IMG/VR virus record: IMGVR_UViG_2563366883_000009 | Length of the DNA stretch: 7,046 bases | Strand: one strand, 5' to 3' | From: a virus | Lineage: Duplodnaviria; Heunggongvirae; Uroviricota; Caudoviricetes | Shown: positions 1 to 7,046 of the stretch, one piece after another | How positions within the stretch are numbered: position 1 is the stretch's first letter | How the letters are laid out: the number at the start of each line of letters is the position of its first letter | Notes under the pieces: model-generated | What the model saw: only the letters and a program-made list of their open reading frames with translations | Told to the model about the DNA's origin: nothing | The model's database searches: none | Position numbers and translations under genes: made by a program

Positions 1-1230
1 ATGAGCAGAGCACTTAACAAACTGAGCGATACACAGCTGAGGAAAATCAACGGCACACCCGCCCAAAAAACAGCCTTTCTTAATGACGGTGGAAACCTGA
101 GCGTCAGGCATTCAACCAGCGGCCTTTTAACCTGGTATTTCACCTACAGGGCCGGAACGGGAAGGGGAGCACGACCGGAACGGATTAAGCTGGGAAATTA
201 TCCTGATCTGAGTCTGAAAGCTGCCAGGGAAAAAGCGGCACAGTGTCGCGCTTGGCTTGCTGAGGGGAAAAATCCACGTCATGAGATGAATTACACCGTA
301 CAGAAAGCGTTAAAGCCCGTAACGGTTGGCGATGCGCTTACCTACTGGCTTGAGTCTTACGTAAAGGAAAACCGCGTGGATTATGCCGCCCTGAAAAAGC
401 GCCTTAATAATCACGTAATACAGCACATTGGTGCTATGCCGCTGGATAAATGCGAGCTACGGCACTGGCTGGCCTGTTTTGACCAGGTGGCAAAGCGAAC
501 GCCTGTTACTGCCGGATTCTTGCTACAGACGTGCAAACAGGCGCTTAAGTTCTGCCGGAGGCGGCGCTATGCAATCAGCAACGTTCTTGATGATATGAGT
601 GTGGCGGACGTTGGGAAAAAACCGGATATAAGCGAGCGTGTCTTAAGCACCAAAGAACTTGGCGAATTATTGCAGGCACTGGACAAAAAAATATTTTCCC
701 CTTACTACGTCGCACTAATCCGCCTCCTGATTGTTTTTGGATGCCGGACGGTAGAACTGAGGTTATCGGAGATCAGCGAGTGGGATTTTACCGAAATGCT
801 CTGGACCGTGCCGAAAGAACACAGCAAAACGAAGGTGGCAATATTCCGGCCCATACCGGAAGCAATACTGCCGTTCGTCACGCAGCTGGTGGAGCAGAAC
901 AGGCACACGGGCTTATTGCTGGGGGAAGTGAAACAGGAAACAAGCGTGTCGCAGTACGGCAGATTAGCGCACAGGAGGCTAAAACACCCTCACTGGTCAC
1001 TGCATGACATCCGGCGCACCTTTACAACGATGCTGAACGATTTAGGCGTGGATCCTCACGTCGTGGAGCAGCTTACAGGTCATCAGATGCCAGGGATGCA
1101 ACGAGTCTATAACCATTCCCGTTATCTGGATGCGAAACGTGACGCGCTGGATATGTGGACGGAGCGGTTAGGGATACTGGCGGGAACACATGAAAACGTA
1201 ACCACATTGCCAATAGCCAGAGAAATATAA
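1..1230 (+). CDS. int: Tyrosine-type site-specific recombinase, P4/CP4-57-like integrase (409 aa)
   Basis: Complete ORF starting at window position 1. N-terminus (KLSDTQLRK...GGNLSVRHSTSGLLTWYFTYR) resembles the arm-binding domain of P4-type integrases. C-terminal catalytic signature is present: GCRTVELRLSEI (Arg I), HWSLHDIRRTF (His-x-x-Arg), LTGHQMPGMQRVYNHSRY (catalytic Tyr region). Upstream RBS cannot be seen because the gene begins at base 1. Confidence 0.95.
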   Translation: MSRALNKLSDTQLRKINGTPAQKTAFLNDGGNLSVRHSTSGLLTWYFTYRAGTGRGARPERIKLGNYPDLSLKAAREKAAQCRAWLAEGKNPRHEMNYTVQKALKPVTVGDALTYWLESYVKENRVDYAALKKRLNNHVIQHIGAMPLDKCELRHWLACFDQVAKRTPVTAGFLLQTCKQALKFCRRRRYAISNVLDDMSVADVGKKPDISERVLSTKELGELLQALDKKIFSPYYVALIRLLIVFGCRTVELRLSEISEWDFTEMLWTVPKEHSKTKVAIFRPIPEAILPFVTQLVEQNRHTGLLLGEVKQETSVSQYGRLAHRRLKHPHWSLHDIRRTFTTMLNDLGVDPHVVEQLTGHQMPGMQRVYNHSRYLDAKRDALDMWTERLGILAGTHENVTTLPIAREI

Positions 1231-1257
1231 TTTTTTTTGCGATTTTTCAGGATGCGG

Positions 1258-1313
1258 ACAACGTGAAACAACGAGACACAACGACGAACAACAAGGAACA
1301 AAATGGAACAACG
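1258..1313. repeat. Six helically phased 10-bp direct repeats of ACAAC(G) type (ACAACG at 1258, 1268, 1278, 1308; ACAACA at 1288; ACAAAA at 1298)
   Basis: Read directly from sequence: ggACAACGtgaaACAACGagacACAACGacgaACAACAaggaACAAAAtggaACAACGgg, exact 10-bp period, ACA-rich, immediately 3' of the int stop codon. Confidence 0.6.
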
Positions 1314-1406
1314 GGTTAAAAATCAGCCATCGTAATAACCATTTGATTTTTATAGGTGTACTGTTTTTTTATACACTGGCGAATCACTCTTAAAAATATG
1401 TAAAAA

Positions 1407-1444
1407 AGGCGTAAAAGTAAAATTTTATGCCTTTGCATCATAAT
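1407..1444 (+). promoter_or_regulatory. Imperfect palindrome AGGCGTAAAA-n6-TTTTATGCCT (9 of 10 matched) followed by TTGCAT and a CATAAT -10-like hexamer; candidate operator/promoter upstream of alpA
   Basis: Inverted repeat arms at 1407-1416 and 1423-1432; CATAAT at 1439-1444. No convincing -35 at canonical spacing was found, so the promoter assignment is tentative. Confidence 0.25.
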
Positions 1445-1512
1445 GAATTAAAAGAGTTTTTATTCTCATTCCCCCTGCTTCTGTAAAACGACCGCCGCCA
1501 GTGTTTGCCATT

Positions 1513-1565
1513 CCACAAACACCCTGACACAATCCGACACAACCCAACCCAATAATCCACCCAAT
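1513..1565. repeat. CA-rich, almost G/T-free tract with tandem 10-bp units (GACACAATCC, GACACAACCC, AACCCAATAA, TCCACCCAAT)
   Basis: Strong strand compositional asymmetry read directly from sequence, about 30 bp upstream of the alpA start; candidate 5' leader or protein-binding array. Confidence 0.5.
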
Positions 1566-1595
1566 GACTCTTTAAGAAACAACAAAGGGGGAATT

Positions 1596-1784
1596 GTGTT
1601 AAGCACAGATCGCTTTATACGTGAAAAAGAATGTCAGCAACTTACAGGCCTGAGCCGCTCATGTCGGTACCGCCTGGAAAAAGCCGGACAATTCCCATCA
1701 CGGCGTAAGCTGGGCGGTCGTTCCGTTGGCTGGTCTTTATCCGAAGTTCTGGCATGGAAGGACAGCTGCGAGGCAGTTCACTAA
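1596..1784 (+). CDS. alpA: AlpA-family phage regulatory protein (small HTH transcriptional regulator/excisionase-like, 62 aa)
   Basis: GTG start at 1596 preceded by GGGGG (1587-1591). Protein carries the AlpA-family signature LTGLSRS..YRL.KAG.FP...KLGGRSVGW...EV.AW. Position directly after int is typical for this family. Confidence 0.88.
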   Translation: MLSTDRFIREKECQQLTGLSRSCRYRLEKAGQFPSRRKLGGRSVGWSLSEVLAWKDSCEAVH

Positions 1785-1790
1785 TCAGGC

Positions 1791-1809
1791 TGGCGGCACA
1801 CAGCCGCCA
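1791..1809 (+). other. Stem-loop (TGGCGGC-acaca-GCCGCCA) just after the alpA stop, without a U-tract
   Basis: Perfect 7-bp GC-rich inverted repeat with 5-nt loop; the following sequence is not T-rich, so it is not a canonical intrinsic terminator. Possible RNA structure or partial attenuator. Confidence 0.3.
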
Positions 1810-1836
1810 CCCATCCACTAATACAGAGATCTAACC

Positions 1837-3114
1837 ATGAATACTGGATATTCTCCCGAACAAGGGCGGGGCTTCGTTCGTCCTGAAAAACAGAATCTGC
1901 AAAATTTTGCCGAAATTATTCCGGTTATTTCCGGCCTTACTGGCGGGAGTGAAACCAATATTGTTAACGCCAGAGCGTTGCAGATGTTTGATGATAAAAA
2001 GGGAGTAAATTTAACTTACACCCCTGACGGCAATCAGAATATGAGCATTATCTCTGAGTCAGGTTTCTACAAACTAATAAAAACAAAAAGCGCCCCGTTG
2101 CCGGAGCGCCTTTGTGAACAATTAACCTACTGCGCAAAAAATGAATCTGAGCAGTGGGATTATATCAACCATGTGGAGAAGCGCCACAATTGCCGAATAA
2201 CGGGCAAAACAAAGGCCACCCGCTACGGTGGCCCCTCGACACAAGCTACACGTTATCCCCAACGCATGAGCATTGCCAACAATGCCACATTTGCGGCTGG
2301 TGGGCAATGCAATCAGTCTGGTTCAGTTCGTTGCCATACCTGCAATGAGCGCTTTTCCCTGTACTCTTTAAGGAATTGCTCAAGGGCAAAAGCACATGGC
2401 GCGAATCTTTCTGATTCATGCTCTATCTTTCTGCGCCGTCTTTTCCGTGCCGGTGATAATGTTTTGGTCAATTCTTTATCGGTCATTGTGTTGTCCTGCA
2501 TAGCAATGCGCCGTAGTTACTCACACCACGGCGCTGGTGATGGTTACTCCTGCTCTTTGGCCTTGCGACGCTGGCGGCGTTTGATCTCACCTTTAACGGC
2601 AGTAACTATAAATTGCGCCTTGCTTTCACCTTCATCTAAATTTTTTTCTAAGTCTGCAACAACATCATGCGGGAATCTGGCATTTAACTGTTGCGACTTA
2701 TTATTTGTTGAACCTGTTGCCATTACTGAATCCTCTCTAAGTTGGTGCGATTCAGTATACACAAAAAAAATTTCAGAGAAAGACTTGAAGTGCGATTCAC
2801 TTACTGATAGGTTAAAAACGAATGGTGCGATGCACCAAACAACAACGCCCCGCAGTGGTGGCACACATGCAGGGCGTCTAACCACCAACGATAGCGAAAG
2901 TATCGAGGTAGCTATGAGAAATCATACCATACACCCGCAAGGGCGGGACTCGCACAACCTGAATAAATACATCTGGCGTTTTATCGCCCTGAGCACGGCA
3001 CAACCGCGCGTGATTACCATTGAGGCCACCAGCGAACAGGAAGCACGCCAGCAATCTCCGGCTGGCTGCGTGATGGTATTTGCTGCCCGTATTCGTCAGG
3101 GGGTAGGCTTATGA
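1837..3114 (+). CDS. Longest open frame (425 aa); probably not one genuine gene. The 5' ~380 nt looks coding-like (weak Bro-N/antirepressor-like stretch NMSIISESGFYKLIKTKSAPL), the middle is antisense to a better-supported minus-strand gene, and the 3' 200 nt is probably the separate small gene 2914-3114
   Basis: No in-frame stop from 1837 to 3114 and no Shine-Dalgarno before the 1837 ATG. First-codon-position composition is purine-rich (coding-like) in 1837-2220 but T-rich (about 44 percent T by hand count) in 2521-2760. The translated middle section is Cys/Ser-rich. Confidence 0.3.
   Translation: MNTGYSPEQGRGFVRPEKQNLQNFAEIIPVISGLTGGSETNIVNARALQMFDDKKGVNLTYTPDGNQNMSIISESGFYKLIKTKSAPLPERLCEQLTYCAKNESEQWDYINHVEKRHNCRITGKTKATRYGGPSTQATRYPQRMSIANNATFAAGGQCNQSGSVRCHTCNERFSLYSLRNCSRAKAHGANLSDSCSIFLRRLFRAGDNVLVNSLSVIVLSCIAMRRSYSHHGAGDGYSCSLALRRWRRLISPLTAVTINCALLSPSSKFFSKSATTSCGNLAFNCCDLLFVEPVAITESSLSWCDSVYTKKISEKDLKCDSLTDRLKTNGAMHQTTTPRSGGTHAGRLTTNDSESIEVAMRNHTIHPQGRDSHNLNKYIWRFIALSTAQPRVITIEATSEQEARQQSPAGCVMVFAARIRQGVGL
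2201..2233 (-). terminator. Candidate rho-independent terminator for the minus-strand module
   Basis: Perfect hairpin GGCCACC-cgctac-GGTGGCC (2214-2233), followed on the minus strand by TTTGTTTTG (complement of plus 2205-2213); lies about 80 nt past the stop of the minus-strand ORF ending at 2313. Confidence 0.45.
2313..2486 (-). CDS. Hypothetical small basic protein (57 aa, MTDKELTKTLSPARKRRRRK...), possible second gene of the minus-strand operon
   Basis: ATG at 2486 preceded by AGGA with 5-nt spacing; the ORF track starts 5 codons earlier at 2501 without an SD. Codon statistics are equivocal and there are several rare Arg codons. Confidence 0.3.
   Translation of the reverse strand: MTDKELTKTLSPARKRRRRKIEHESERFAPCAFALEQFLKEYREKRSLQVWQRTEPD
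2544..2723 (-). CDS. Arc/Mnt-like ribbon-helix-helix DNA-binding protein (59 aa); putative repressor
   Basis: Internal ATG at 2723 of the 2544-2888 minus ORF, preceded by GAGAGGA about 8 nt upstream. Protein LNARFPHDVVADLEKNLDEGESKAQFIVTAVKGEI aligns by eye with the P22 Arc pattern FNLRWPREVLDLVRKVAEENGRSVNSEIYQRV (beta-strand, helix A, G-x-S turn, helix B). First-codon-position composition is G>A>C>T, as in real genes, by hand count. Confidence 0.7.
   Translation of the reverse strand: MATGSTNNKSQQLNARFPHDVVADLEKNLDEGESKAQFIVTAVKGEIKRRQRRKAKEQE
2724..2913. promoter_or_regulatory. Divergent AT-rich control region with three direct repeats GTGCGAT(T/G)CA (2745-2754, 2790-2799, 2825-2834) and a TATACT -10-like element for the minus-strand gene (plus coordinates 2754-2759)
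   Basis: Repeats read directly; copy 1 overlaps the candidate -10/start region of the RHH gene. An inverted pair TGAATC (2727-2732) / GATTCA (2749-2754) flanks the RHH RBS. The -35 assignments are weak. Confidence 0.5.
2914..3114 (+). CDS. Hypothetical small protein (66 aa); likely first gene of the plus-strand operon (alternative model to the 425-aa ORF)
   Basis: ATG at 2914 preceded by GAGGT (2905-2909); coding-like first-position composition (T about 12 percent) and high GC3; stop overlaps the next start in ATGA at 3111-3114. Confidence 0.5.
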   Translation: MRNHTIHPQGRDSHNLNKYIWRFIALSTAQPRVITIEATSEQEARQQSPAGCVMVFAARIRQGVGL

Positions 3115-3341
3115 GCCAGGAAATCACACTACAACAGGCAGCAGAACGCGCCCACCAAATCGAAGTTATTTGCGCACTGGCAGAGGATTACCCTGGCATG
3201 ATGACCGACAGCGAATCAGGGGCAATCATCGGCTTACTTAAACGCCTTAGCGGTGAGGTCTGCGTATTCCTGAGCGATGAACAGGAAAGAAGAACGCTTA
3301 TTTCTAACGAAAAAAAATGCGGAGGGGTACATGTGCAATAA
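3111..3341 (+). CDS. Hypothetical small protein (76 aa)
   Basis: ATG at 3111 overlapping the upstream stop (ATGA); GGGGGTAGG RBS at 3096-3104; protein-like composition. Confidence 0.6.
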   Translation: MSQEITLQQAAERAHQIEVICALAEDYPGMMTDSESGAIIGLLKRLSGEVCVFLSDEQERRTLISNEKKCGGVHVQ

Positions 3342-3555
3342 AACCACACCGGACGCAGCCGCCGCCGCGCTCACTACGCTGATGCACGCGCTTATTGATA
3401 TTTCTGTTATTGCTGACAGGGCGCATAAACACGCAGCCAGAGAATCAGAATGCATCTTCCATTATTTAACATTTGTGCAGCTAAAAGCCGATCAGGCACT
3501 GGATAAGGCCGGAAAAATTATCATGGCTGATGTGCAGGAGGTGCACCATGCATAA
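3331..3555 (+). CDS. Hypothetical small protein (74 aa from the internal start; the ORF track gives 3277)
   Basis: ATG at 3331 has a GGAGGGG RBS (3321-3327) and only an 11-nt overlap with the upstream gene; the 3277 ATG lacks a good SD and would overlap by 65 nt. Confidence 0.5.
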   Translation: MCNKTTPDAAAAALTTLMHALIDISVIADRAHKHAARESECIFHYLTFVQLKADQALDKAGKIIMADVQEVHHA

Positions 3556-3913
3556 CCTGTCAATTTCTGACCTTAACAGCATTCAGTTTGACGAGAAATT
3601 TACCGGGCAGTTGCTGGTCAATGTGGAGAACGGGCGCATAGTGCGTAATTATCACCTGCCGGATGGTGCAATTGCCGGAAGCGTTGAAGCATTGCTGGAA
3701 CTGGCGGAACGTGCGCGACTGATTAAGCCGTCAACGAGCCATCACGATGATGATCTGCATTTTACCGGATGTATGGTGAGTCACTACGAAAACGGCGTCG
3801 AGGTATCCTGCGAACGGCTGCGTGATGATTGCTGTTTCGGCACACTGCCGGAATTTATCGAGTTGCTGACCAGTTGCGGTTATCAGGTCATTCAGGGGGG
3901 TAAACATGCGTGA
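3548..3913 (+). CDS. Hypothetical protein (121 aa from the internal start; the ORF track gives 3530)
   Basis: ATG at 3548 preceded by a perfect AGGAGG (3536-3541) with 6-nt spacing; overlaps the upstream stop by 8 nt. Confidence 0.65.
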   Translation: MHNLSISDLNSIQFDEKFTGQLLVNVENGRIVRNYHLPDGAIAGSVEALLELAERARLIKPSTSHHDDDLHFTGCMVSHYENGVEVSCERLRDDCCFGTLPEFIELLTSCGYQVIQGGKHA

Positions 3914-4127
3914 TGATCGTTTTAATTCCCTGAAACAGGAATTTTCCGGCGTTCCTGATGATGCGGCTGATGCGCTTTCGTCAATGCCAGAGCTTATTAG
4001 AGCGGATTTTTTCTTACTTTCCACGAGAGAATATAAATCAACGGGGCTTGATGTACTGAATATCGTCGCCGATTATGCTGATTTCGTGACAGAGGTTATT
4101 TTAAGAAAAACGACGGACGGGGATTAA
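3906..4127 (+). CDS. Hypothetical small acidic protein (73 aa)
   Basis: ATG at 3906 with GGGGGG RBS (3895-3900); overlaps the upstream stop in ATGCGTGA. Confidence 0.6.
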   Translation: MRDDRFNSLKQEFSGVPDDAADALSSMPELIRADFFLLSTREYKSTGLDVLNIVADYADFVTEVILRKTTDGD

Positions 4128-4128
4128 T

Positions 4129-4362
4129 ATGCGTGATATTTACCTTGAAACAATAGACCGCGCATTTCTTGCACTTTCTCACAGTGAAAGCATGATGGAA
4201 ATATTACGCATATGGCTTGAAACACTTGGCGACAATGAACGCAACAAACAAAAATCAAGAATTGCCACGGCATTAATAACGCTTCTTGAGCCTGTAATAA
4301 TGGAACTGCAAGAAATAGATCTATTGCACGATATATATAAAGAACAGCACACCGGAGAATAA
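4129..4362 (+). CDS. Hypothetical small protein (77 aa)
   Basis: ATG at 4129 one base after the upstream TAA; GGGGA RBS at 4119-4123. Confidence 0.6.
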   Translation: MRDIYLETIDRAFLALSHSESMMEILRIWLETLGDNERNKQKSRIATALITLLEPVIMELQEIDLLHDIYKEQHTGE

Positions 4363-4367
4363 AAATA

Positions 4368-4667
4368 ATGAAACTTAAATATTCTGGCTTAACTGCCAGT
4401 GGCAACACTCACCCTAAATTTACGCGCGGTGATATTTACCGCGACCAGTACGGCGGCACGGTAATGATTAAGGGCGTGGAAGAACGGCGCGTAACCTACC
4501 GCCGTGAAGGTTACGAATATGATTGCGTGATGCCTGTTTATCAGTTCCGGCGTGATTTTTCTCTGGTACAGACCGCGCCGCATAACGTGCCCACCAGCAA
4601 CGCCAGGGCACGGGCAAACATCCAGAAGCTGAAAACCATGATTAACGGATTCAGGGGCAAGAAATGA
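4368..4667 (+). CDS. Hypothetical protein (99 aa)
   Basis: ATG at 4368 with GGAG (4354-4357); stop overlaps the helicase start in ATGA at 4664-4667. Confidence 0.6.
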   Translation: MKLKYSGLTASGNTHPKFTRGDIYRDQYGGTVMIKGVEERRVTYRREGYEYDCVMPVYQFRRDFSLVQTAPHNVPTSNARARANIQKLKTMINGFRGKK

Positions 4668-6064
4668 AAAGCGCACCGAACTTAAAAAAACAGCCTTACG
4701 ACAAGATGACCGAAGTCATTATTTTTGCGGGTAGTGATGCCTGGGCACATGCGAAACAGTGGCAGGAACAGGACGGGCGACTGGCTGGCGATAATGTGCC
4801 TCCCGTTGTGCTGGCTGATGATCAACTGGATGAACTGGCAGACCTGAGAATCATCGACGAGGGGCGCTATTGTGTCCGGCTGTACAAGGCAGGCCACATC
4901 AGGCCATCAAATATTAATGCCATTGCGCACAAGCTGGCGGCGGCGGGTGTAACTGATGCGAATTATTACCCCGAAGGGATGCACAGCCATATGCGGGAGA
5001 ACTGGCGCGAATACCTGGAACGGGTGCGCGGGAAAGAGCCGGCGGAAGAAAAAAACCACCAGCGAAAAACCACGCTACCGATGAGCGTTGGATCTACCGG
5101 ATACGACACGCAACTGGATTACGTGGTTAAGGGGATTATTCCGGCGGTATCGCTATGCAGCATATACGGGGCTAGCGGGTCCTATAAATCATTCCTTGCC
5201 GGATCGTGGGCGTGCCATGTTGCCACTGGTCGCCAGTGGGGAGGCCGCAGGGTTGCACATGGTGCGGTTCTCTATGTGGTTGGTGAAGGCGGTATAGGTG
5301 TTCCGCGTCGTGTAAAAGCCTGGGAGGTTGTGCACGATGAGCAGGTGAAAAATCTGTATCTGGTAAACCGCCCCATCTTTCCGGCTGCCCCGCTTGATGT
5401 TGATGAAATGGTTATCGCTGCCCGTCAGGTGGAGCGGGAAACGGGTAAACCTGTACGCATGATTATTCTGGATACGCTGGCGCGTTGCTTTGGTGGGAAT
5501 GATGAAAATGATTCCCGTGATATGGGGGCGTTTATCCGTGGTTGTGACGAACTGAAACGACGCACAGGGGCCACGGTGCTGGTGGTTCACCATTCCGGCA
5601 AGGATGAGACGAAAGGCGCGCGCGGTTCCAGTGCATTTCGTGCTTCGCTGGATGCTGAATACCGGATACGCAGGGAGGACGCAGGAAGCGAAGCGCTGGT
5701 TATCTCATGCACCAAAATGAAGGACGCGGAGGAACTCAAAGAAGCCGCATATGACTTACGCGTGGTGGAGCTTTTTACCGACGCTGACGGTGAATTAATC
5801 ACGTCGCTGGTGGTGGTGGATGATCCGCGCCCTCCTGTTGAACTGGAGCGCATCGAGGAGGCAGGGAACAAGACGGAAAACCATACCGCGCTATGGGGGT
5901 GCATCCGTTCACGCACACAGAACGGCGACAAGTGCACGATCCCGCTGTTACGTGATGACATGAAAAAGCTGGGGTATGAAATGAAAAACTTCCGGCGCTG
6001 GCTGTACAAGCTGGAAAAAGATGGGGTTATTCGTATCGATGGGGATGATGTAGCGCCGCTATAA
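4664..6064 (+). CDS. Replication protein: RepA/DnaB-like (AAA_25-type) helicase ATPase with an N-terminal toprim-like region (466 aa); satellite/PICI-type primase-helicase module
   Basis: P-loop-like IYGASGSYKSFLAGSWACHVATG, Walker B-like MIILDTLARCFGG and the VLVVHHSGKDETKGARGSSA motif typical of RepA-like helicases. The N-terminal TEVIIFAGSD...VVLADDQLDE stretch is toprim-like by eye only. Translationally coupled to the upstream gene. Confidence 0.9.
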   Translation: MKSAPNLKKQPYDKMTEVIIFAGSDAWAHAKQWQEQDGRLAGDNVPPVVLADDQLDELADLRIIDEGRYCVRLYKAGHIRPSNINAIAHKLAAAGVTDANYYPEGMHSHMRENWREYLERVRGKEPAEEKNHQRKTTLPMSVGSTGYDTQLDYVVKGIIPAVSLCSIYGASGSYKSFLAGSWACHVATGRQWGGRRVAHGAVLYVVGEGGIGVPRRVKAWEVVHDEQVKNLYLVNRPIFPAAPLDVDEMVIAARQVERETGKPVRMIILDTLARCFGGNDENDSRDMGAFIRGCDELKRRTGATVLVVHHSGKDETKGARGSSAFRASLDAEYRIRREDAGSEALVISCTKMKDAEELKEAAYDLRVVELFTDADGELITSLVVVDDPRPPVELERIEEAGNKTENHTALWGCIRSRTQNGDKCTIPLLRDDMKKLGYEMKNFRRWLYKLEKDGVIRIDGDDVAPL

Positions 6065-6255
6065 AAGTGAGGAGCAAAAGCGAGGTGGATAGAAAGAGGG
6101 CCAAAATTAGCCTGCTCTCCCTCACTTTTCTACCTGTATACATCCTCAAAAGTGAGGGGTAAAAAAATACTTATGAAACACACACATAGAAAAACCAAAA
6201 ATCCCAATTGCGACGAAGTGAGACGCTTGAAAAAGTGAGGCGAAAAAGTGAGAGG
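6063..6255. repeat. Iteron-like array of AAAAGTGAGG: perfect copies at 6063-6072, 6148-6157, 6231-6240 and inverted at 6119-6128; degenerate copies at 6077-6086, 6214-6223, 6244-6253; with an A/T-rich spacer at 6160-6205. Candidate replication origin
   Basis: Read directly from sequence, starting at the helicase stop codon. In SaPI-type elements the ori with iterons sits immediately 3' of the rep gene. Confidence 0.55.
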
Positions 6256-6264
6256 TTGCGAGAA

Positions 6265-6516
6265 ATGACCCAAAAACGCAGAGACAGAACAGAGCCGAAA
6301 TATAAGGCGTTAGATATGGCTGAACTGGCTTTAAAGGTGGCAATCAGAACGATAGACCGCCACGCGGGGGAAGGATACGCGAAGGAGCATCCCGAACTGA
6401 TAAGCGCATTCATGACCACAGCGGCGGCAAACTTTGCCACGCTGACAGAAAGGGAGATTTCCGAAGCGGAACAGGTAACAACCATCAACGTTAAAACCGG
6501 AGAGGTGGAAGCATGA
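6265..6516 (+). CDS. Hypothetical small protein (83 aa from the internal ATG; the ORF track starts at TTG 6208 inside the repeat array)
   Basis: ATG at 6265 preceded by GAGAGG (6250-6255); the 6208 start would translate the iteron repeats themselves. Confidence 0.5.
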   Translation: MTQKRRDRTEPKYKALDMAELALKVAIRTIDRHAGEGYAKEHPELISAFMTTAAANFATLTEREISEAEQVTTINVKTGEVEA

Positions 6517-6818
6517 GCGAACCAAAATTTGGTGAAAAATTTTACAAGCACAACGGACGGATCACGATTCTGCAAATAAGCGCAGCTACACCAGGCTGGT
6601 GGGTTGAAACAGACGAAGGATCCTCACCCGTGGCATCATGGGCGCTTTGTGTGCTTAGTTACCCTGACCGCGATGTGTATCAGGATATTCTGCCTGTGAT
6701 ATCCACTGACAAAGGCATGAAACCCGTAGACATCAAAAACATGGGTTTTCAGTGCGTAATGCTCACTGAAAAAATGATGGAAGAGATGAAAAAGAACAAC
6801 GCCGGATCGCTTCACTGA
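6513..6818 (+). CDS. Hypothetical protein (101 aa)
   Basis: ATG at 6513 overlapping the upstream stop (ATGA); GGAGAGG RBS at 6499-6505. Confidence 0.6.
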   Translation: MSEPKFGEKFYKHNGRITILQISAATPGWWVETDEGSSPVASWALCVLSYPDRDVYQDILPVISTDKGMKPVDIKNMGFQCVMLTEKMMEEMKKNNAGSLH

Positions 6819-6827
6819 GGTGGCAAT

Positions 6828-7046
6828 ATGACAGCACAAATTGCAGCTTACGGGCGGCTGGTGGAGACAGACAAGGAACGGCATCACATCACGATGCGAC
6901 GGCTGGAATGTTCCAGGAAGGCACAGAGGCCACCGGAGCCGCCGGATAATTACGGAGACCTGAAAAAGGCGGTCGATCGCACTTATGCCGAAATGGGTAT
7001 GGATGGTGCTGGTGATGAAATATGGCGAAATTACCAGGACAGATAA
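6828..7046 (+). CDS. Hypothetical small protein (72 aa), complete; stop is the last codon of the window
   Basis: ATG at 6828 preceded by GAGGTGG (6817-6823); protein-like composition. Confidence 0.6.
   Translation: MTAQIAAYGRLVETDKERHHITMRRLECSRKAQRPPEPPDNYGDLKKAVDRTYAEMGMDGAGDEIWRNYQDR

What the first reader, a model, noticed from the sequence alone, without database searches (positions are those of the whole stretch)
6063..6264. Iteron array AAAAGTGAGG immediately 3' of the helicase gene: candidate origin of replication
At least four perfect copies (one inverted) and three degenerate copies of a 10-bp motif lie within about 190 bp, beginning at the helicase stop codon and flanking an A/T-rich stretch at 6160-6205. 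That is the expected anatomy of an iteron-type origin recognised by the adjacent Rep protein. The ORF-track start at 6208 would translate the repeats, so the downstream gene more likely starts at 6265.
Basis: partly seen in the sequence, partly recalled or inferred. Interest (0 to 1): 0.6.

Follow-up and report, generated by a model that had tools for sequence, protein, structure and literature searches.

The report
Replication origin of a phage satellite
The repeat cluster just after the helicase gene is very probably the replication origin of an E. coli phage satellite (a capsid-forming PICI), an arrangement already known for this class of elements; the new detail is that the repeats appear to be read by the helicase's C-terminal winged-helix domain, not its N-terminus.

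Summary
Seven copies of AAAAGTGAGG lie at 6063-6253: four perfect (one inverted) and three degenerate. They start inside the helicase stop codon and flank an A/T-rich trough at about 6158-6205. Chance expectation for the perfect 10-mer is 0.01.

The window is the left half of an EcCIEDL933-like capsid-forming PICI. PICI and SaPI origins are known to lie immediately 3' of rep, as two iteron sets around an AT-rich stretch.

In about 145 of 151 distinct relatives across Enterobacterales the same layout follows the Rep stop codon, whatever gene comes next.

The iteron sequence changes with lineage. In 130 of 130 loci one variable iteron base tracks one Rep residue, window N442: N with A, H or K with G, S or G with C. 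N442 caps the recognition helix of a confidently modelled C-terminal winged helix.

The N-terminal domain is shared with the unrelated EcCICFT073 Rep, which uses different iterons. The 6265 start for the next gene is supported.

Verdict: a new member of a known kind, with modest interest. Rep-dependent replication was not tested here.

The parts
4664..6064 (+). rep: a 466-aa RepA/DnaB-like (RecA-fold, AAA_25) helicase and putative initiator of the island
   Evidence: Pfam AAA_25 at residues 148-315, E=2e-43. Profile hit to RSF1010 RepA 1g8y, E=6e-5. PGAP name 'helicase RepA family protein'. Fold hits to T7 gp4 and Rad51/RadA cores.
4664..5038 (+). Rep N-terminal module (about residues 1-125) of unknown function; probably not the iteron reader
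   Evidence: 62% identical to the N-terminus of the otherwise unrelated D5-type Rep of EcCICFT073, which has different iterons. No Pfam hit. AF2 gives an alpha/beta domain with pLDDT 60-90.
5861..6061 (+). Rep C-terminal winged-helix domain (about residues 400-466): helices 405-419 and 426-435, recognition helix 443-452, beta-hairpin wing 456-465; proposed iteron-binding domain
   Evidence: AF2 model of residues 392-466 has mean pLDDT 87.7. Nearly all the top Foldseek hits are winged-helix DNA-binding domains: IclR/PcaR, MotA, IdeR/DtxR, LexA, MexR, MCM4/MCM8 WH and DnaD-N, with TM 0.55-0.70 and prob 0.9-0.99 but weak E-values.
5987..5989 (+). Codon for N442, the N-cap of the recognition helix and the candidate specificity residue
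   Evidence: It is the only alignment column of the last 330 residues that predicts iteron base 6 perfectly: N-A 34/34, H-G 41/41, K-G 29/29, S-C 20/20, G-C 6/6.
6063..6072 (+). Iteron 1 (perfect AAAAGTGAGG), overlapping the Rep stop codon
   Evidence: In 91 of 130 relatives the first copy starts 0-5 nt from the first base of the stop codon.
6076..6085 (+). Iteron 2 (AAAAGCGAGG, 1 mismatch), 13 bp after iteron 1
   Evidence: A copy at about +15 is conserved in relatives.
6120..6129 (-). Iteron 3, perfect and inverted
   Evidence: Exactly one inverted copy occurs in 104 of 130 relatives; most inverted copies start at +40 to +69.
6148..6157 (+). Iteron 4, perfect; with iteron 3 it forms an 11-bp inverted repeat with an 18-nt spacer
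   Evidence: I3. As single-stranded DNA the hairpin has dG -9.1 kcal/mol, z = -3.7.
6158..6205 (.). A/T-rich stretch, the proposed DNA-unwinding element
   Evidence: GC 0.30-0.32 in 60-nt windows. The minimum 40-nt GC is 0.225-0.25 at +98 in the relatives whose rep-ori segment is 100% identical to the window. A trough at +90 to +109 occurs in 100 of 130 relatives, median GC 0.25.
6214..6223 (+). Iteron 5, degenerate (CGAAGTGAGA; core AAGTGAG intact)
   Evidence: (D2). It corresponds to the +144/+155 copies of relatives.
6231..6240 (+). Iteron 6, perfect
6244..6253 (+). Iteron 7 (AAAAGTGAGA, 1 mismatch); its GAGAGG also serves as the Shine-Dalgarno-like sequence for the next gene
   Evidence: and the sequence read (GAGG ends 9 nt before the ATG at 6265).
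6265..6516 (+). First gene downstream of the origin (83 aa, PHROG 1231, function unknown); the true start is 6265, not 6208
   Evidence: PGAP start in the 100%-identical relative. The PHROG profile aligns 1-83 of 83.

Best explanation
The 6063-6253 array is the vegetative replication origin (ori) of a capsid-forming phage-inducible chromosomal island (cf-PICI, EcCIEDL933 type). After helper-phage induction and excision, the island's Rep protein is made. Rep is a RepA/DnaB-like RecA-fold hexameric helicase with a C-terminal winged helix. The winged helix binds the AAAAGTGAGG iterons on both sides of the A/T-rich stretch. Residue N442, at the start of the recognition helix, reads the variable A of the iteron. 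Binding of several Rep subunits, or of two hexamers, melts the 6158-6205 A/T-rich region, and the helicase loads itself there. This mirrors what is described for SaPI Rep proteins. This Rep has no primase domain, so priming would need host DnaG or a partner protein.

Shown here:
- The array exists and is far beyond chance.
- It is attached to the rep stop codon throughout the family.
- It co-varies with the Rep C-terminal winged helix.

Inferred:
- Actual binding, melting and self-loading.
- Helicase polarity.
- The source of priming.
For: 1. Context. The rep-ori segment is 100% identical to E. coli SW070917. There it sits in a 13.4-kb island carrying int, an HTH regulator, DUF4222, rep, PerC, then capsid, protease, portal, head closure, connector, HNH, TerS and TerL. 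The same architecture is present in O157:H7 at the EcCIEDL933 site.

2. Precedent. PICI origins lie immediately 3' of rep, as two iteron sets flanking an AT-rich region. The EcCICFT073 rep-ori fragment drives plasmid maintenance, and deleting rep or ori reduces it (PMC6092414). SaPI Reps are self-loading helicases whose C-terminal winged helix recognises iterons immediately downstream of rep (PMC9371898).

3. Conservation. Of 151 distinct downstream regions from relatives in more than 25 genera, about 145 carry an array (one search lists the exceptions). The layout was measured on the 130 that could be parsed:
- 5-9 copies in 129 of 130.
- The first copy starts 0-5 nt from the stop codon in 91 of 130.
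- Exactly one inverted copy in 104 of 130, mostly at +40 to +69.
- An AT trough at +90 to +109 in 100 of 130.

4. The array follows rep, not the downstream gene. The first ORF downstream fell into 34 BLAST families by a crude ORF call, several of which are short GTG-start ORFs that may be spurious. At least about 10 look like real, unrelated genes.

5. Co-variation.
- The window Rep and the L088 Rep differ at only 10 residues, all within 420-464, and every iteron copy changes from AAAAGTGAGG to AAAAGTGGGC.
- Across 130 loci, residue 442 predicts iteron base 6 without exception.
- It is the only alignment column of the last 330 residues that does so. The next best column has conditional entropy 0.36 bit.
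- Iteron base 8 is best predicted by Y448, R457, R444 and F443.

6. Structure. Residues 400-466 model confidently as a winged helix, with N442 at the N-cap of helix 3.

7. A single cis site. The full element has no other copies.

8. Episomal form. A K. pneumoniae 17-kb closed-circular 'plasmid' is a cf-PICI with this Rep type and the same array layout. No other replication gene is listed in its (incomplete) annotation.
Against: - No experiment on this Rep family or this origin was found in the searchable literature. The validated E. coli case, EcCICFT073, uses a different helicase superfamily (D5/SF3).
- The N442 codon lies only about 75 bp from the first iteron. Part of the co-variation could therefore be co-inheritance of a recombination cassette. 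The parsimony count of at least 8 joint switches is inflated by recombination.
- Foldseek E-values for the small winged-helix domain are weak (0.08-0.3), although nearly all the top hits are winged helices.
- The helicase core was modelled poorly in places (full-length pLDDT 63.6).
- No primase is encoded in this Rep, so the priming step is unexplained.
Confidence: 0.85

Rival explanations
1. The repeats are operator or regulatory sites. A transcription factor (or Rep acting only as a repressor or roadblock) would control expression of the downstream late or packaging genes, or autoregulate rep, without any origin function.
For: The array lies between rep and the next co-oriented genes, and the last copy overlaps their ribosome-binding site. 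Iteron-binding initiators of plasmids commonly autoregulate (general knowledge). Regulatory use by Rep is not excluded as a second function.
Against: - No sigma-70-like promoter lies in 5900-6400.
- The array stays fixed to the rep stop codon while the downstream gene belongs to at least about 10 unrelated families.
- A conserved central AT-rich trough and two flanking repeat sets are origin anatomy, not operator anatomy.
- The array co-varies with the helicase's own winged helix.
Confidence: 0.07
2. The functional unit is the inverted-repeat pair 6119-6158, acting as a single-strand hairpin or cruciform (a single-strand initiation or priming signal as in IncQ ssiA/ssiB, or a recombination site). 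The other copies would be incidental.
For: The 11-bp stem with an 18-nt loop folds at -9.1 kcal/mol, z = -3.7 and -3.2 on the two strands. The inverted-plus-direct pair is conserved in most relatives. The helicase core is related to IncQ RepA.
Against: - Complementarity follows automatically from two copies of one protein-binding motif in opposite orientation.
- Five further direct copies are conserved in position and sequence, and a hairpin does not explain them.
- Sequence changes track a protein residue, not stem pairing.
- No intrinsic-terminator-like or ssi-like features were found around the 6119-6158 pair. The single terminator-like site the scan returned lies at 6099-6112 on the minus strand and is no more than shuffles give (1 found, 0.8 expected).
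Confidence: 0.04
3. The array is a packaging recognition site (pac or cos) for the island's own small terminase.
For: cf-PICIs package their own DNA with their own TerS, TerL and HNH (bioRxiv 10.1101/2022.09.08.507074). Repeat arrays can be TerS binding sites (general knowledge).
Against: - The array is linked to rep, several kb from terS.
- It co-varies with the Rep winged helix.
- A repeat array at the equivalent position 3' of rep, with different iterons, is present in EcCICFT073, which lacks terminase genes.
Confidence: 0.02

Closest known systems
PICI/SaPI replicon (Rep initiator-helicase plus an ori immediately 3' of rep); validated for SaPIbov1, SaPI1, EfCIV583 and E. coli EcCICFT073
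   Same: The ori starts right after rep. Two iteron sets, including oppositely oriented copies, flank an AT-rich centre. The helicase carries a C-terminal winged helix that matches the iterons. The element is a phage satellite with int, a regulator, rep and packaging genes.
   Different: The helicase motor belongs to a different superfamily. Here it is a RecA-fold AAA_25 / RSF1010-RepA / T7-gp4-like core. SaPI Reps are AAA+ proteins placed in or near the superfamily III clade, and EcCICFT073 Rep is D5_N/DUF5906/Pox_D5. The iterons are about 10 nt rather than penta- or hexanucleotides. No primase is encoded in or beside this rep.
Satellite phage P4 alpha protein with ori and crr
   Same: A satellite-encoded multifunctional replication protein whose C-terminal winged helix binds short repeated sites (own knowledge; the PICI paper compares the two).
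   Different: P4 alpha is a primase plus an SF3 helicase, and it needs two separate cis regions (ori and crr). Here there is a single array, with no other copies in the element, and an SF4-like helicase without a primase.
IncQ plasmid RSF1010 RepA helicase with oriV
   Same: The helicase core is homologous (1g8y, E=6e-5 over residues 154-325). The origin has iterons plus an AT-rich region (own knowledge).
   Different: In IncQ the iterons are bound by a separate initiator, RepC. RepA has no DNA-binding winged helix, and priming uses RepB' at the ssi sites (own knowledge). Here the winged helix is fused to the helicase and no RepC or RepB is present.
T7 gp4-type primase-helicases
   Same: About 700-aa relatives of this Rep carry Zn_Ribbon_Prim plus Toprim plus AAA_25, the gp4 architecture. 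T7 gp4 is the top fold hit for the full model.
   Different: gp4 has no origin-binding domain, and T7 initiation depends on transcription (own knowledge). The window Rep lacks the primase half and adds a C-terminal winged helix.
Iteron plasmids (pPS10, F, R6K, RK2: Rep_3/RepA with tandem winged-helix domains) and lambda O/ori
   Same: Direct repeats next to an AT-rich unwinding element, read by a winged-helix recognition helix.
   Different: Those initiators are not helicases and recruit host DnaB. The lambda ori lies inside the O gene. Here the initiator is itself the helicase and the ori begins at its stop codon.

Membership tests
PICI-type replication origin | Lies immediately 3' of the replication initiator (rep) gene | tested here: met
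   The first iteron starts at 6063, inside the rep stop codon at 6062-6064. The same holds in 91 of 130 relatives.
PICI-type replication origin | [quoted passage not shown] | tested here: met
   Four copies on the left (one inverted) and three on the right of the 6158-6205 trough, GC about 0.30.
PICI-type replication origin | The host element is a PICI (int at the left end, unidirectional transcription, rep module, packaging or interference module, about 10-18 kb, no lysis or tail module) | tested here: met
   The window covers only int to PerC. Relatives whose rep-ori segment is 100% identical, or that match the whole window at 96.9% identity, show the complete 13-15 kb island.
PICI-type replication origin | The fragment supports Rep-dependent autonomous replication, and deleting the ori abolishes it | not testable with these tools
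   This needs a plasmid-maintenance or Southern assay. It has been done only for EcCICFT073 and the Gram-positive PICIs.
PICI-type replication origin | The cognate Rep binds the iterons specifically through its C-terminal winged helix | tested here: inconclusive
   Binding was not measured. Support is indirect: a winged-helix model and perfect residue-442 to base co-variation in 130 loci.
Capsid-forming PICI (cf-PICI) | Own capsid, protease, portal, head-closure, connector, HNH, TerS and TerL genes, and no tail genes | tested here: met
   These genes lie outside the window. They are present downstream in E. coli SW070917, which has an identical rep-ori, and in O157:H7 F6321.
RepA (RSF1010/IncQ)-family hexameric helicase | RecA-fold AAA_25 core homologous to RSF1010 RepA | tested here: met
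   Pfam AAA_25 E=2e-43; 1g8y E=6e-5.
IncQ-type replicon | A separate iteron-binding initiator (RepC) and a dedicated primase (RepB') with ssi sites | tested here: not met
   No such genes appear in the window or in the full islands. The DNA-binding winged helix is fused to the helicase.
P4 alpha-type replicon | Primase plus SF3 (D5-like) helicase, and two cis sites (ori and crr) | tested here: not met
   Only AAA_25 was found, with no D5_N, Pox_D5 or primase domains. There is a single array in the element.
Classical iteron-plasmid initiators (Rep_3/RepA_N) | A non-helicase initiator made of tandem winged-helix domains | tested here: not met
   Rep is a helicase with one C-terminal winged helix.

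The most novel reading that the evidence does not exclude
This Rep family may be a distinct class of self-loading initiator-helicase. It would be a RecA-fold, DnaB/RepA/gp4-like (SF4-type) motor fused to a C-terminal winged helix, in contrast to the AAA+/SF3-type motors of SaPI Rep and P4 alpha. In this reading a single residue at the N-cap of the recognition helix (N, H/K or S/G) sets which base (A, G or C) is accepted at one iteron position. That would create at least three to five mutually exclusive origin-specificity groups among satellites of Enterobacterales. It would also give a one-residue switch that could be used to re-programme origin recognition.
Probability: 0.4. Interest if true: 0.5.

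Novelty: new member of a known kind. Interest (0 to 1): 0.3.

Why it matters
The finding places the replication origin of a very common E. coli satellite. Related rep-ori DNA is present in 1653 of 5426 complete E. coli genomes. The origin can be predicted for the whole family from the rep stop codon alone.

The residue-to-base correspondence suggests several origin-specificity groups. These would govern whether co-resident satellites compete or coexist. It also offers a simple, directly testable mutation (N442H) for probing how a helicase-fused winged helix reads its origin.

The general principle, an iteron origin 3' of rep in PICIs, was already published, so the advance is incremental.

Tried and rejected
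- Promoter and terminator scan of 5900-6400: no promoter-like site, and one weak minus-strand terminator-like hit no better than shuffles. The promoter and terminator readings were dropped.
- Rfam scan of 5900-6450 at E<=1: nothing.
- Literature search for the iteron strings: only unrelated primer hits. Searches for the cf-PICI origin: no characterisation found.
- Foldseek with the full-length Rep model: only RecA-core hits, uninformative for the terminal domains. The C-terminal domain was therefore modelled separately.
- A first version of the co-variation table showed 10 apparent N-to-C cases. These were a registration error in my regular expression, which matched noisy flanks, and were corrected.
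- A DnaA-box-like GGTGGATAG at 6084-6092 was considered. It is not conserved in relatives, where that position holds a third iteron. Rejected.
- Phage collection search: essentially no hits. The element is not represented among deposited phage genomes.
- Plasmid collection search: 10 hits, most of them large replicons or misassigned chromosomal pieces. One is a genuine circular 17-kb cf-PICI.
Full report
**Observation.**
The 10-mer AAAAGTGAGG occurs exactly four times in the 7046-bp window, at 6063(+), 6120(-), 6148(+) and 6231(+). Dinucleotide-preserving shuffles expect 0.01. One-mismatch copies lie at 6076 and 6244. A more degenerate copy at 6214-6223 keeps the 7-nt core.

All six exact AAGTGAG cores of the window lie within 6065-6252, against 0.6 expected, and none lies elsewhere. 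The first copy begins at the second base of the helicase stop codon (TAA 6062-6064). Between copy 4 and copy 5 the GC content falls to 0.30.

**Context.**
The window begins with a tyrosine integrase (1-1230; Arm-DNA-binding and Phage_integrase domains). It continues with small co-oriented genes, a DUF4222 gene (4368-4667) and a 466-aa protein with an AAA_25 domain (4664-6064).

The rep-to-6600 segment is 100% identical to E. coli SW070917. There it sits in a 13.4-kb island inserted in tqsA. The island continues with PerC, major capsid, HK97 protease, portal, head-closure, connector, HNH, TerS and TerL, and has no tail or lysis genes.

The whole window matches O157:H7 islands next to roxA at 96.9% identity, with the same architecture. 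This is the capsid-forming PICI (cf-PICI) family typified by EcCIEDL933 (bioRxiv 10.1101/2022.09.08.507074). Related rep-ori DNA is found in 1653 of 5426 complete E. coli genomes.

**What is already known.**
Fillol-Salom et al. 2018 (PMC6092414) state that in PICIs of Gram-positive and Gram-negative bacteria the region immediately 3' of the initiator gene is the origin. It is built as two iteron sets flanking an AT-rich region. They showed that the EcCICFT073 rep-ori fragment supports plasmid maintenance, and that maintenance drops when rep or ori is deleted.

Their supplementary table lists the EDL933 island as a candidate. I found no text describing its origin, and nothing on cf-PICI origins in the later papers.

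For SaPIs, Rep is a self-loading hexameric helicase. Its C-terminal winged helix recognises iterons lying immediately downstream of rep (PMC9371898).

**Comparative test.**
I fetched 160 loci encoding relatives of the helicase, at 50-100% identity. Eighty came from one-genome-per-species bacterial assemblies and 80 from IMG/VR. Together they span more than 25 genera, including Escherichia, Salmonella, Citrobacter, Klebsiella, Enterobacter, Kosakonia, Pantoea, Erwinia, Pectobacterium, Serratia, Yersinia, Morganella, Photorhabdus and Xenorhabdus.

For each locus I extended the gene to its stop codon and searched the next 330 bp for the most repeated 9-mer. Of 151 distinct downstream regions, about 145 have an array. 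The layout was measured on the 130 that could be parsed:
- There are 5-9 copies in 129 of 130 loci.
- The first copy starts 0-5 nt from the first base of the stop codon in 91 of 130.
- Direct copies cluster at about +0 to +29, +70 to +99 and +130 to +199.
- Exactly one inverted copy is present in 104 of 130, mostly at +40 to +69.
- A GC trough (median 0.25) lies at +90 to +109 in 100 of 130.

The exceptions are mostly truncated or frameshifted rep genes. One is a collapsed array (see "Things noticed").

A crude ORF call put the first ORF downstream into 34 BLAST families. Several of these are short GTG-start ORFs that may be spurious, but at least about 10 look like real, unrelated genes. The array therefore belongs to rep, not to whatever follows it.

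**Who reads the repeats.**
The iteron sequence differs between lineages. Variants include AAAAGTGAGG (the window), AAAAGTGGGGAGT, AAAAGTGGGCA, AAGTGGGGGAA, TAAGTGCGGCATTT, AAGTGCGCG and AAGTGGGTA. Within any one element all copies agree.

The window Rep and the L088 Rep differ at only ten residues, all between 420 and 464. Every iteron copy differs in concert, A to G at core base 6 and G to C at base 8.

Across 130 distinct loci, the residue aligned with window N442 predicts base 6 of AAGTGNGG without exception:

| Residue at 442 | Iteron base 6 | Loci |
|---|---|---|
| N | A | 34/34 |
| H | G | 41/41 |
| K | G | 29/29 |
| S | C | 20/20 |
| G | C | 6/6 |

The N-A pairing occurs in four local sequence contexts. 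The MKNF/MKHF contexts are near-identical sister alleles, and the VKNM/TKHL contexts are closely related ones. N442 is the only column in the alignment of the last 330 residues with zero conditional entropy. The next best column has 0.36 bit, and residues physically closer to the origin (K452, R457, A464) predict worse. Iteron base 8 is best predicted by Y448, R457, R444 and F443.

AlphaFold2 models residues 392-466 with mean pLDDT 87.7. The fold has helices at 405-419, 426-435 and 443-452, followed by a beta hairpin at 456-465. Nearly all the top Foldseek matches in the PDB are winged-helix DNA-binding domains: IclR/PcaR, MotA, IdeR/DtxR, LexA, MexR, Fur, the MCM4 and MCM8 WH domains, and DnaD-N. 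TM-scores are 0.55-0.70 and probabilities 0.9-0.99, with the weak E-values that are typical of 70-residue domains. N442 sits at the N-cap of the third helix, the recognition helix. The pairings Asn with A and His or Lys with G are chemically conventional (own knowledge).

Two caveats apply. The codon lies only about 75 bp from the first iteron, so recombination co-transfers them. The parsimony estimate of at least 8 joint switches is also inflated by cassette exchange.

**The N-terminal domain.**
EcCICFT073, the experimentally validated E. coli PICI, was located in the CFT073 genome. Its Rep is a D5_N/DUF5906/Pox_D5 protein with no similarity to the window helicase, apart from the first ~125 residues, which are 62% identical.

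Its origin carries quite different repeats, CTGTCTACC and GGTAGAYAG, arranged around a T-rich centre. One N-terminal module therefore serves two unrelated iteron sequences.

In about 700-aa relatives (Xenorhabdus, Serratia, Pectobacterium and others) this module is replaced by a Zn-ribbon plus Toprim primase. That gives a T7-gp4-like primase-helicase with the same C-terminal winged helix and the same kind of array.

**Mechanism proposed.**
After induction, Rep hexamers or protomers bind the iterons on both sides of 6158-6205 through the C-terminal winged helix. They melt the AT-rich stretch and load themselves there. The helicase core is related to RSF1010 RepA (1g8y, E=6e-5) and to the T7 gp4 and RecA-like folds. 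A 5'-to-3' polarity is inferred from that family only.

The array is the only one in the element, unlike the ori-plus-crr arrangement of P4.

A K. pneumoniae 16,971-bp closed-circular 'plasmid' turned out to be a cf-PICI whose only annotated replication protein is this type of Rep. Its Rep is followed by TAAGTGCGGCA iterons in the same layout, and it carries S at the 442 position. This is consistent with episomal existence but does not prove autonomous replication.

**Rivals.**
- Operator-only role. This is unlikely. No promoter-like site was found, the array is independent of the downstream gene, and the anatomy is that of an origin.
- Hairpin or ssi reading of the inverted pair. The hairpin folds at -9.1 kcal/mol with z = -3.7. 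This reading explains neither the five conserved direct copies nor the protein co-variation.
- pac or cos role. The array is linked to rep, far from terS. A repeat array at the equivalent position, with different iterons, occurs in EcCICFT073, which lacks a terminase.
- Known RNA family. None matches.

**Minor claim.**
The next gene starts at the ATG at 6265, not at the TTG at 6208. PGAP uses 6265 in the identical relative. The PHROG 1231 profile aligns from its first to its last position with the 83-aa product. A GAGG ends 9 nt upstream of the ATG.

**Things noticed.**
L099, an IMG/VR relative with an MKHF-type Rep, has an origin collapsed to two or three iterons that directly abut the downstream gene. 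This looks like iteron-iteron recombination that deleted the inverted copy and the AT-rich stretch, in effect a natural origin deletion.

**Novelty and score.**
The kind of feature is already described: an iteron origin 3' of rep in a phage-inducible island. This specific origin, for the RepA-type helicase of cf-PICIs, was not found described, so I class it as a new member of a known kind.

The added value is threefold: family-wide conservation, assignment of recognition to the C-terminal winged helix rather than the N-terminus, and a clean one-residue to one-base correspondence. All three are computational and need binding and replication assays. Interest is 0.3.

Noticed in passing
L099:3914-4000 (IMG/VR UViG_2541047774_000008): A relative with an 87%-identical Rep has an origin collapsed to 2-3 iterons that directly abut the ATG of the downstream gene. 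The inverted copy, the AT-rich stretch and the right-hand set are missing. This looks like iteron-iteron recombination producing a natural origin deletion, possibly a replication-dead island.
   Followed up: partly
window 4664-5038 (Rep residues 1-125) and 4368-4667 (DUF4222 gene overlapping the rep start): The Rep N-terminal module is portable. It is 62% identical to the N-terminus of the unrelated D5-type Rep of EcCICFT073, and in about 700-aa relatives it is replaced by a Zn-ribbon plus Toprim primase. In the window, in EcCICFT073 and in the two E. coli cf-PICIs examined, an overlapping DUF4222 gene precedes rep. The module has no Pfam match; AF2 gives an alpha/beta domain. Its function is unknown; recruiting a primase or the DUF4222 protein is a guess.
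   Followed up: partly
L164 (K. pneumoniae 'plasmid' CP018459.1, 16,971 bp, circular): A record deposited as a plasmid is a complete cf-PICI (integrase, DNA-binding protein, RepA-type helicase, capsid, adaptor, terminases). It also carries a 1135-aa gene annotated as a tail tape measure protein. It is evidence that such islands can be recovered as closed circles, and the tape-measure-like gene is an odd cargo for a satellite that steals tails.
   Followed up: partly
window 1837-3114: A 425-aa ORF with no Pfam match. Its C-terminal 86 residues match PHROG 6196/1743 ('transcriptional repressor'; Icd-like in PGAP relatives), and its N-terminus weakly matches anti-repressor (Ant) families. In the closest annotated relatives this region is instead split into several small genes (Icd-like, YlcI/YnfO). 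The long ORF may be a fusion, a mosaic replacement or an over-call.
   Followed up: no
window 1-7046 compared with E. coli complete genomes: The window is mosaic. The rep-ori-downstream part is 100% identical to strain SW070917 (island in tqsA). The whole window best matches O157:H7-type islands next to roxA at only 96.9%, in two pieces. The C-terminal end of Rep and the origin seem to move together as a cassette between helicase backbones.
   Followed up: partly
L163:8997-9284 (EcCICFT073 origin): The published EcCICFT073 origin region shows about 10 copies of CTGTCTACC / GGTAGAYAG. Left-hand copies are in one orientation and right-hand copies in the other, around a T-rich centre. This is more symmetrical than the window's array, where six of seven copies point the same way.
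   Followed up: no
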